Shown: positions 8,197 to 24,329 of the stretch, in pieces | Layout of the letters: every line of letters begins with the position of its first letter | How positions within the stretch are numbered: position 1 is the stretch's first letter | NCBI RefSeq assembly: GCF_000008665.1 | Contig: NC_000917.1 | Location: forward strand, 390,001-422,000 | Reading direction: 5' to 3' | Length of the DNA stretch: 32,000 nt | Origin: Archaeoglobus fulgidus DSM 4304 | Lineage (GTDB): Archaea; Halobacteriota; Archaeoglobi; Archaeoglobales; Archaeoglobaceae | Translations under genes and position numbers: made by a program | The notes under the pieces: model-generated | Seen by the model: only the letters and a program-made list of their open reading frames with translations | What the model was told of the DNA's origin: nothing | The model's database searches: none

Positions 8197-8279
8197 GCGG
8201 GGGTTGCCGAGCGGACAAAGGCGCAGGATTGAGGGTCCTGTCCCGTAGGGGTTCGAGGGTTCGAATCCCTCCCCCCGCA
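8197..8279 (+). tRNA. tRNA-Leu (anticodon GAG)
   Basis: Hand-folded 83-nt cloverleaf. Acceptor GCGGGGG/CCCCCGC. Anticodon stem CAGGA/TCCTG with loop TTGAGGG (U33, GAG, G37). Long variable arm (class II). T-arm GAGGG-TTCGAAT-CCCTC. Discriminator A. CCA is not encoded and there is no intron. Confidence 0.93.
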
Positions 8280-23071: not shown

Positions 23072-23083
23072 ACATTGTTCAGC

Positions 23084-23539
23084 ATGGAAGAGGCTGAGAA
23101 AGCGAAGAGAAGGTCGATAGAGCTTCTCAACGAAACGAGGAACTGTGCCTATTCTTCCTTTGTTGCCCTTGCCGAAGCTCTGAATATCAGTCTCAACGAG
23201 GACATGAAAAACATGGCTATCGGCTTCGCCGGTGGAATCTCGGGGTCGGGACACATCTGCGGGGCCTTGTGGGGCTCCATAGCAGCAGCAAGTCTTTACA
23301 CTATGAAAATGATGGGGGACAGAAGGAAAATCCAGAACCCGCTGGAAAGGTACATGCCCGTCTATGCCAAATGCGCTGGAATTTACAGAAAGTTTGTTGA
23401 GTTAAATGGAAGCCCAAATTGCGGGGATTTAAATCCGAACCTCGACCTCGTGTCTGTGGAGCAGAGAAGGAAATGCATGGAAATAGTCAGCAGGGCGGTT
23501 GAAATCACGCTCTCCTCCCTCAAGGACCAAAAAACTTAA
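23084..23539 (+). CDS. C_GCAxxG_C_C family (putative redox-active) protein
   Basis: Contains NCAYSSFVALAEAL, GFAGGISGSGHICGALWGS, CGDL and C...V, the conserved Cys pattern of the family. The ORF-track start at 23075 is a TTG, and the ATG at 23084 (MEEAEKAKRR) is preferred. Confidence 0.78.
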   Translation: MEEAEKAKRRSIELLNETRNCAYSSFVALAEALNISLNEDMKNMAIGFAGGISGSGHICGALWGSIAAASLYTMKMMGDRRKIQNPLERYMPVYAKCAGIYRKFVELNGSPNCGDLNPNLDLVSVEQRRKCMEIVSRAVEITLSSLKDQKT

Positions 23540-23563
23540 TTAAGTTTTAAACTAAACAACAAT

Positions 23564-23622
23564 AGCTCCGCCCCTCACGCCCGGGTGAGAAGCATGATCC
23601 CGGGTCGGTTGGCGGAGCTACA
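23564..23622 (+). ncRNA. Candidate single-hairpin H/ACA box guide sRNA
   Basis: Hand fold of an intergenic sequence. Lower stem AGCTCCGCC (23564-23572) pairs with GGCGGAGCT (23611-23619), 9 bp. Internal pocket strands are CCTCACG (23573-23579) and TCGGTT (23605-23610). Upper stem CCCGGG (23580-23585) pairs with CCCGGG (23599-23604). The apical loop TGAGAAGCATGAT carries 5' UGA-GA and 3' UGA elements (K-loop-like, an L7Ae site). ACA is at 23620-23622. The upper stem lies 14-15 nt from ACA, as required for H/ACA guides. The opposite strand lacks an ACA. Confidence 0.65.
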
Positions 23623-23729: not shown

Positions 23730-24329
23730 ATGAAGTGGGGTTCAGCGTTCAGGCTTGCGGTTAAGGCCTTTCTGTTCGGACTGCTGTGGGTTGTTATAGG
23801 AGCCCTGCTGGTTACTGGTGGAGTATTCATGTTCCTCACAGGCGTCAGGATTCTCGCATTCCTTGCAGGGTTTGCAGGTCTGTTTATCATGTTCTTCGGC
23901 TTCTTTGCAGCGGTGTTCAAGGTTGGAAGCGACGCGTTCCTTGAGAAGTACGAAGCTTCACTTCAGCCTGTGGAGGTTACCTACGAGAACCAGGGCTTTG
24001 CGATGATACTCGGACAGCTCATCGACCAGGCTCTCACAAAAAACCCCTCCAAAGGAAACCTTGTGAGGGATTTGGAGGGCAATCTGGTTGTTGAGGTTAC
24101 AGACATGAACGCAGCGGCAACGGTTGAGTTTAATAAGGGCAGGATAACGGTTTACAACGGAATGCCCGCAAAAGGGAAATTCTCTATCATCTCTTCCGAC
24201 TTTGAGACCATCAACTCCCTCGCAACGGGAAAGGCGGGAATGCTGAAAACTCTAAAGCTTTTAGCCACCGGAAAGCTAAAAATAAAGGGCATAAGGATGG
24301 CAAGAAAGTTCCAGAGCCTCTTAGCCTAA
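23730..24329 (+). CDS. Membrane-anchored SCP2 (sterol-carrier-protein-2-like) lipid-binding domain protein
   Basis: 199 aa. The N-terminus has two long hydrophobic segments (LFGLLWVVIGALLVTGGVFMFL and LAFLAGFAGLFIMFFGFFAAVF). The C-terminal about 110 aa match the SCP2 pattern (...AAATVEFNKGRITVYNG...DFETINSLATGKAGMLKTLKLLATGKLKIKG). Confidence 0.72.
   Translation: MKWGSAFRLAVKAFLFGLLWVVIGALLVTGGVFMFLTGVRILAFLAGFAGLFIMFFGFFAAVFKVGSDAFLEKYEASLQPVEVTYENQGFAMILGQLIDQALTKNPSKGNLVRDLEGNLVVEVTDMNAAATVEFNKGRITVYNGMPAKGKFSIISSDFETINSLATGKAGMLKTLKLLATGKLKIKGIRMARKFQSLLA

What the first reader, a model, noticed from the sequence alone, without database searches (positions are those of the whole stretch)
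23564..23622. Unannotated H/ACA guide sRNA candidate with a predicted target in the LSU rRNA peptidyl-transferase region
Seen in sequence: the 190-bp gap between two protein genes contains all the parts of an archaeal H/ACA guide.
- A 9-bp lower stem.
- A pseudouridylation-pocket-like internal loop (5' CCUCACG, 3' UCGGUU).
- A 6-bp GC upper stem.
- A GA-rich apical loop (UGAGAAGCAUGAU) suited to L7Ae binding.
- ACA immediately 3' of the lower stem, 14-15 nt from the pocket.

Established knowledge: this is the architecture of archaeal H/ACA guides, and several were found experimentally in Archaeoglobus.

Inference: the pocket arms are complementary to 5'-GACCG-UC-GUGAG-3' (CGGUU pairs with GACCG including one G-U; CUCAC pairs with GUGAG). 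From memory, that is the conserved archaeal/eukaryal large-subunit rRNA sequence equivalent to E. coli 23S 2588-2599. The guided pseudouridine would then fall at the equivalent of U2593. The rRNA sequence is recalled, not present in this window.
Basis: partly seen in the sequence, partly recalled or inferred. Interest (0 to 1): 0.6.

Follow-up and report, generated by a model that had tools for sequence, protein, structure and literature searches.

The report
Known archaeal pseudouridine guide RNA Afu-46
This small RNA gene is real and guides one uridine-to-pseudouridine change in the ribosome's catalytic centre, but it is almost certainly the already published Archaeoglobus fulgidus guide RNA Afu-46, so it is ordinary.

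Summary
Observation confirmed. Window 23564-23622 (+) is a single-hairpin box H/ACA guide: 9-bp lower stem, 6/5-nt pocket, 7-bp upper stem capped by a K-loop, and ACA 14 nt from the pocket. Homologues occur in 31 of 59 relatives searched (10/10 in the genus), with compensatory changes in 7 of 15 pairs and a conserved TATA-like box upstream. Its only rRNA target is GACCG-UC-GUGAG in this genome's 23S rRNA (E. coli U2593, helix 93). One numbering offset out of 45 puts U at all five other published A. fulgidus guide targets; under it this target is U2639, the site published for Afu-46 (Af46) in PMC4652768, which cites Tang et al. 2002. It is the only H/ACA-shaped locus in the genome able to pair there, and it matches the Pyrococcus orthologue Pab91 (Rfam RF02795, 35.7 bits, below the cut-off of 71), shown in vivo and in vitro to guide the equivalent Psi2685. 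Cbf5, L7Ae, Nop10 and Gar1 are encoded. 'Unannotated' holds only for Rfam's cut-off. I could not read the printed Afu-46 sequence, so the name rests on target, shape and uniqueness. The scan had not noted this family on other DNA. Already known.

The parts
23564..23622 (+). Single-hairpin box H/ACA sRNA (Afu-46/Af46; Pab91 orthologue), 59 nt to the end of the ACA box
23564..23572 (+). Lower stem P1, 5' strand
   Evidence: pairs with 23611-23619; 98.4% of cells paired, 3 pairs with two-sided change
23573..23578 (+). 5' guide arm CCUCAC; CUCAC pairs with 23S GUGAG (2641-2645)
   Evidence: CAC invariant in 26 aligned homologues
23579..23585 (+). Upper stem P2, 5' strand, opening with a G-U pair
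   Evidence: 99.4% of cells paired, 4 pairs with two-sided change
23586..23598 (+). K-loop: U.U, tandem sheared G.A/A.G (23587-23588 with 23596-23597), extruded U23595; L7Ae site
   Evidence: UG-A and CAUGA invariant or nearly so; fits the published RNAMotif descriptor; binding itself not tested here
23599..23605 (+). Upper stem P2, 3' strand
23606..23610 (+). 3' guide arm CGGUU; pairs with 23S GACCG (2634-2638), one G-U
   Evidence: CGGU invariant
23611..23619 (+). Lower stem P1, 3' strand
23620..23622 (+). ACA box (Cbf5 PUA-domain site), 14 nt after the pocket
   Evidence: invariant in all aligned homologues
23526..23542 (+). Putative archaeal promoter: purine-rich BRE-like run, then TATA-like CTTAATTA (23535-23542), overlapping the TAA stop of the upstream gene
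   Evidence: same position in relatives with unrelated flanks: T at -28 in 23/29, T at -27 in 21/29, A at -25 in 21/29, A at -31 in 23/29; transcription start inferred, not measured

Best explanation
The locus is the A. fulgidus single-hairpin box H/ACA sRNA Afu-46. It is most likely transcribed from its own TATA/BRE promoter as a roughly 60-nt RNA (inferred). L7Ae binds the apical K-loop, Cbf5 binds the lower stem and ACA box, Nop10 and Gar1 complete the particle (established for the family; genes shown present). The two pocket arms pair with 23S rRNA 2634-2638 and 2641-2645 in helix 93, leaving U2639-C2640 unpaired at the base of the upper stem, 14 nt from ACA (pairing shown by computation), and Cbf5 isomerises U2639 (E. 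coli U2593) to pseudouridine (reported experimentally for Af46 and for the orthologue Pab91). The likely benefit is stiffening of the peptidyl-transferase region at high temperature (proposed in the literature, not shown for this single site).
For: Fold and covariation: 98.9% of cells paired, 7 pairs and 17 cells with two-sided change, 0/500 shuffles, slid controls 27-56% paired. Only rRNA site with at least 3+3 bp is 23S U2639, 5+5 bp. Only start 1788751 among 45 offsets makes the published A. fulgidus positions 1364, 1970, 2601, 2632, 2878 all U, and it makes the target 2639. PMC4652768: Af46 guides L2639 as shown by Tang et al.; its supplement draws Af46 with a K-loop, 6-layer 5' guide and 5-layer 3' guide, as here. 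Of 471 genome hits to the published descriptor only this one pairs at U2639; single copy. Rfam Pab91 match over all 57 positions with identical arms CUCAC/CGGU; Pab91 guides Psi2685 in vivo and in vitro and is seen on Northern blots, and P. abyssi minus A. fulgidus numbering is 46 here (2647/2601, 2678/2632), so 2685 = 2639 (PMC2377435). Cbf5, L7Ae, Nop10, Gar1 present above cut-off. Positive control: the same scan assigns the genome's other strict hit to U1970, the published Af4.3 target.
Against: The printed Afu-46 sequence or coordinates could not be read: Tang 2002, Rozhdestvensky 2003 and Charpentier 2005 are not held and the supplement alignments are illegible. The target match alone is only modestly beyond chance (51 of 1000 shuffled rRNA sets scored as high). 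No guide-target covariation: the rRNA site is invariant, and 4 of 14 genomes with both parts carry a U-to-C arm change that leaves an A.C mismatch.
Confidence: 0.95

Rival explanations
1. A genuine but unreported H/ACA guide for U2639, the published Afu-46 being a different locus.
For: The Afu-46 sequence could not be read directly.
Against: No other descriptor hit in the complete genome can pair at U2639; the covariance model and Pab91 model each find one locus only; pocket sizes and K-loop match the published drawing of Af46.
Confidence: 0.03
2. A cis-acting hairpin of the neighbouring mRNAs (terminator, 3'-UTR or SECIS-like element of the upstream C-GCAxxG-C-C gene, or a leader of the downstream gene) that only looks like a guide.
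For: It starts 25 nt after the stop of a TIGR01909 C-GCAxxG-C-C family gene, a family that includes selenoproteins.
Against: The upstream gene is next to the hairpin in only 4 and the downstream gene in only 9 of 29 relatives' loci, while the hairpin, pocket arms, K-loop and ACA stay fixed; no U-tract terminator; own TATA-like box conserved at -28; the unpaired arms are the most conserved part and match rRNA.
Confidence: 0.01
3. An H/ACA RNA whose main target is not U2639 (a tRNA or mRNA), or which has a second target.
For: A weak 3+3 match to tRNA-Gln U8; the same 5+5 word occurs three more times in the genome outside rRNA; intron-containing tRNAs were not scanned.
Against: Arms conserved across 30 loci to fit one invariant rRNA site; the orthologue Pab91 has this one validated target; chance occurrences of a 10-base word are expected in 2.2 Mb.
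Confidence: 0.03

Closest known systems
Afu-46 (Af46), single-hairpin H/ACA sRNA of Archaeoglobus fulgidus (Tang et al. 2002, as cited in PMC4652768)
   Same: Same organism, same target 23S U2639, K-loop, 6-nt 5' guide and 5-nt 3' guide; only locus in the genome that can serve this site. The chimeric RNA of the H/ACA RNP crystal structure 3HAX was derived from Afu46.
   Different: No difference found; letter-by-letter identity could not be checked because the primary paper was not held.
Pab91 / Pfu91 / Pho91 (Rfam RF02795), Thermococcales H/ACA sRNA guiding 23S Psi2685
   Same: Single hairpin of 57-59 nt, K-loop, arms CUCAC and CGGU, ACA at 14 nt, equivalent target uridine.
   Different: Stem sequences diverged and the apical loop is 2 nt longer; scores 35.7 bits against a gathering score of 71, so Rfam does not annotate it.
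Afu-4 / Pab40 / HgcG (RF00064), three-hairpin H/ACA sRNA
   Same: Same class and machinery, same organism.
   Different: Three motifs with K-turns and other targets (16S 1167, 23S 2601 or 2632, 23S 1970); a separate locus, one motif of which probably lies at genome 2119288-2119356.

Membership tests
Archaeal box H/ACA sRNA | Hairpin with 9-bp lower stem and 10-layer upper (GA) stem around an internal-loop pocket | tested here: met
   9 bp; 7 bp + U.U + 2 G.A = 10; covariation in both helices
Archaeal box H/ACA sRNA | Apical K-turn or K-loop (RA...UGA) | tested here: met
   GA 23587-23588 and UGA 23595-23597, conserved
Archaeal box H/ACA sRNA | ANA box 14-16 nt from the target uridine | tested here: met
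   ACA at 14 nt in all 30 loci parsed
Archaeal box H/ACA sRNA | Bipartite complementarity to a cellular RNA leaving UN unpaired | tested here: met
   5+5 bp around 23S U2639-C2640, unique in both rRNAs
Archaeal box H/ACA sRNA | Cbf5, L7Ae, Nop10, Gar1 encoded | tested here: met
   all above curated cut-offs
Archaeal box H/ACA sRNA | Stable transcript, RNP assembly and pseudouridine at the target | not testable with these tools
Afu-46 itself | Targets A. fulgidus 23S position 2639 | tested here: met
   numbering fixed by five other published positions
Afu-46 itself | Sequence identical to the published clone | not testable with these tools
   papers not held, supplement illegible
Rfam Pab91 (RF02795) | Score at or above gathering threshold 71 bits | tested here: not met
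   35.7 bits, E 4e-5 per genome, full length; orthologue by target and shape, but not a formal Rfam member
Rfam Pab91 (RF02795) | Guides the uridine equivalent to P. abyssi 2685 | tested here: met
   offset of 46 from PMC2377435 gives 2639; same arms

The most novel reading that the evidence does not exclude
The A. fulgidus RNA is known, but its homologues across Archaeoglobi seem undescribed and are missed by Rfam. In some lineages the 5' arm has changed (CCCAC, UCCAC) while the rRNA site has not, and six family members lack a detectable copy; these variants might have been retargeted, or Psi2593 lost in some lineages.
Probability: 0.1. Interest if true: 0.25.

Novelty: already known. Interest (0 to 1): 0.07.

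Why it matters
Little new biology: the RNA, its target and the mechanism were reported, and a derivative served in crystal structures of the H/ACA particle. The only practical gain is annotation: Rfam's Pab91 model misses all Archaeoglobi copies, and the alignment here (A1, model R1) would extend the family and shows that this helix-93 guide is shared by Archaeoglobi and Thermococcales.

Tried and rejected
Rfam at gathering score: no hit at this locus. Sigma-70 promoter and intrinsic terminator scans: nothing, and not suited to archaea. Minus strand: folds as a mirror hairpin but lacks a 3' ANA box and K-loop. Guide-target covariation: not available because the rRNA site is invariant. Pab91 model in five family members lacking the guide: only chance-level hits. 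One search used wrong coordinates and is void (redone); the two energies came from mis-sized structure strings and are void (redone).

Full report
Observation. The 59 bases at 23564-23622 (+) lie in the 190-nt gap between a C-GCAxxG-C-C family gene (23075-23539, TIGR01909) and a 199-aa gene starting at 23730. They form a GC-rich island (68% against 23% and 36% in the flanks), fold far better than shuffles (z -3.7) and occur once in the genome. One refinement: G23579 pairs with U23605, so the upper stem has 7 bp and the pocket arms are CCUCAC and CGGUU. This register is the lowest-energy fold at 83 C and is kept as G-U, A-U or G-C in all 24 distinct homologues. The apical 13 nt are a K-loop (U.U, two sheared G.A pairs, extruded U), giving the 10/5/9 fold that PMC4652768 calls productive.

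Organism. The numbering test below supports this independently.

Conservation. BLAST and a covariance model built from 26 homologues find one strong copy in 10 of 10 genomes of the genus, 29 of 35 of the family and 2 of 2 of one more family of the class; none was found in 2 genomes of another family of the order or in the 20 more distant genomes searched. Of 357 pair cells 98.9% pair; 7 of 15 pairs show two-sided changes; no shuffle reaches this and slid controls pair at 27-56% (kin are not independent). The invariant columns are the pocket cores CAC and CGGU, the K-loop and ACA. Flanking genes change: the upstream gene is adjacent in 4 and the downstream gene within 1.5 kb in 9 of 29 relatives' loci, yet an A-rich run followed by a TTWAW box stays at about -33 to -24. 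This suggests an independent gene with its own BRE/TATA promoter and a start close to the first paired base (inference).

Target. The 23S gene lies at genome 1785815-1788756, minus strand. Scanning every U of 16S, 23S and 42 intron-less tRNAs, the pocket has one rRNA site, GACCG-UC-GUGAG, with 5+5 bp, and one weak 3+3 tRNA match. By itself that score is reached in 5% of shuffled rRNA sets, so it needed corroboration. In an E. coli 23S copy of 2905 nt the matching U is at 2594, i.e. U2593 in the standard 2904-nt numbering (A2602 landmark, from my knowledge). The site is unchanged in all 26 archaeal 23S loci parsed.

Identity. The literature gives A. fulgidus 23S positions 1364, 1970, 2601, 2632 and 2878 as proposed target uridines. 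Of 45 possible start offsets only 1788751 makes all five U, and with it the target of this guide is U2639. PMC4652768 states that Af46 allows pseudouridylation at L2639 as shown by Tang et al. 2002, draws Af46 with a K-loop, a 6-layer 5' guide and a 5-layer 3' guide, and notes that the RNA of structure 3HAX derives from Afu46. Running that paper's descriptor over the whole genome gives 471 loose hits, of which only this locus can pair at U2639; only two hits are near-perfect, and the other is assigned by the same scan to U1970, the published Af4.3 target, a positive control. I could not read the Afu-46 sequence itself, so the name is inferred from target, shape and uniqueness.

Orthologue. The best Rfam match is Pab91 (RF02795), full length, 35.7 bits, below the gathering score of 71, which is why standard annotation misses it. 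Pab91 was seen on Northern blots and guides Psi2685 in vivo and in vitro; the same paper equates P. abyssi 2647 and 2678 with A. fulgidus 2601 and 2632, an offset of 46, so 2685 is 2639 (PMC2377435). That paper places the domain V pseudouridines in helices 89, 90 and 93 and proposes they stabilise the centre at high temperature; Thermococcus cbf5, nop10 and gar1 mutants are thermosensitive (PMC6138745). L7Ae protects the Pab91 K-loop (PMC3726423). All four proteins are encoded in this genome.

Mechanism, shown and inferred. Shown here: structure, conservation, unique complementarity, spacing, machinery genes. From papers: modification at 2639 by Af46 and at 2685 by Pab91. Inferred: own promoter, transcript ends, thermal role of this one site.

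Loose ends. Four of 14 genomes with both guide and rRNA have a 5' arm ending CCAC instead of UCAC, leaving an A.C mismatch after three base pairs, with no change in the rRNA. Six family members, all drafts of 81-99% completeness, gave no copy. Tolerated mismatch and incomplete assembly are the simplest readings.

Verdict.

Noticed in passing
genome G000:C1:2119288-2119356 (+), outside the window: Second near-perfect H/ACA hairpin, arms GGUCA/GUUAC, pairing 5+5 at 23S U1970; probably motif 3 of the published Afu-4.
   Followed up: partly
window 23535-23542: The TATA-like box of the sRNA overlaps the TAA stop codon (23537-23539) of the upstream C-GCAxxG-C-C gene.
   Followed up: partly
L031, L023, L028, L026 (also L024, L030): 5' guide arm variants CCCAC or UCCAC that mismatch the invariant rRNA adenosine (E. 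coli 2598 equivalent).
   Followed up: partly
G012, G013, G022, G026, G028, G029: Family members with no detectable copy of the guide; G013, G028 and G029 do hold the unchanged rRNA site. Draft genomes, so absence is not shown.
   Followed up: partly
G038:C3:326033-326089 and G024:C37:21135-21193: Weak second full-length hits to model R1 (32.7 and 28.3 bits); perhaps other single-hairpin H/ACA guides.
   Followed up: no
window 8197-8279 (+): tRNA gene with a long variable arm and GAG anticodon (Leu), the only Rfam hit at gathering score in the window.
   Followed up: no
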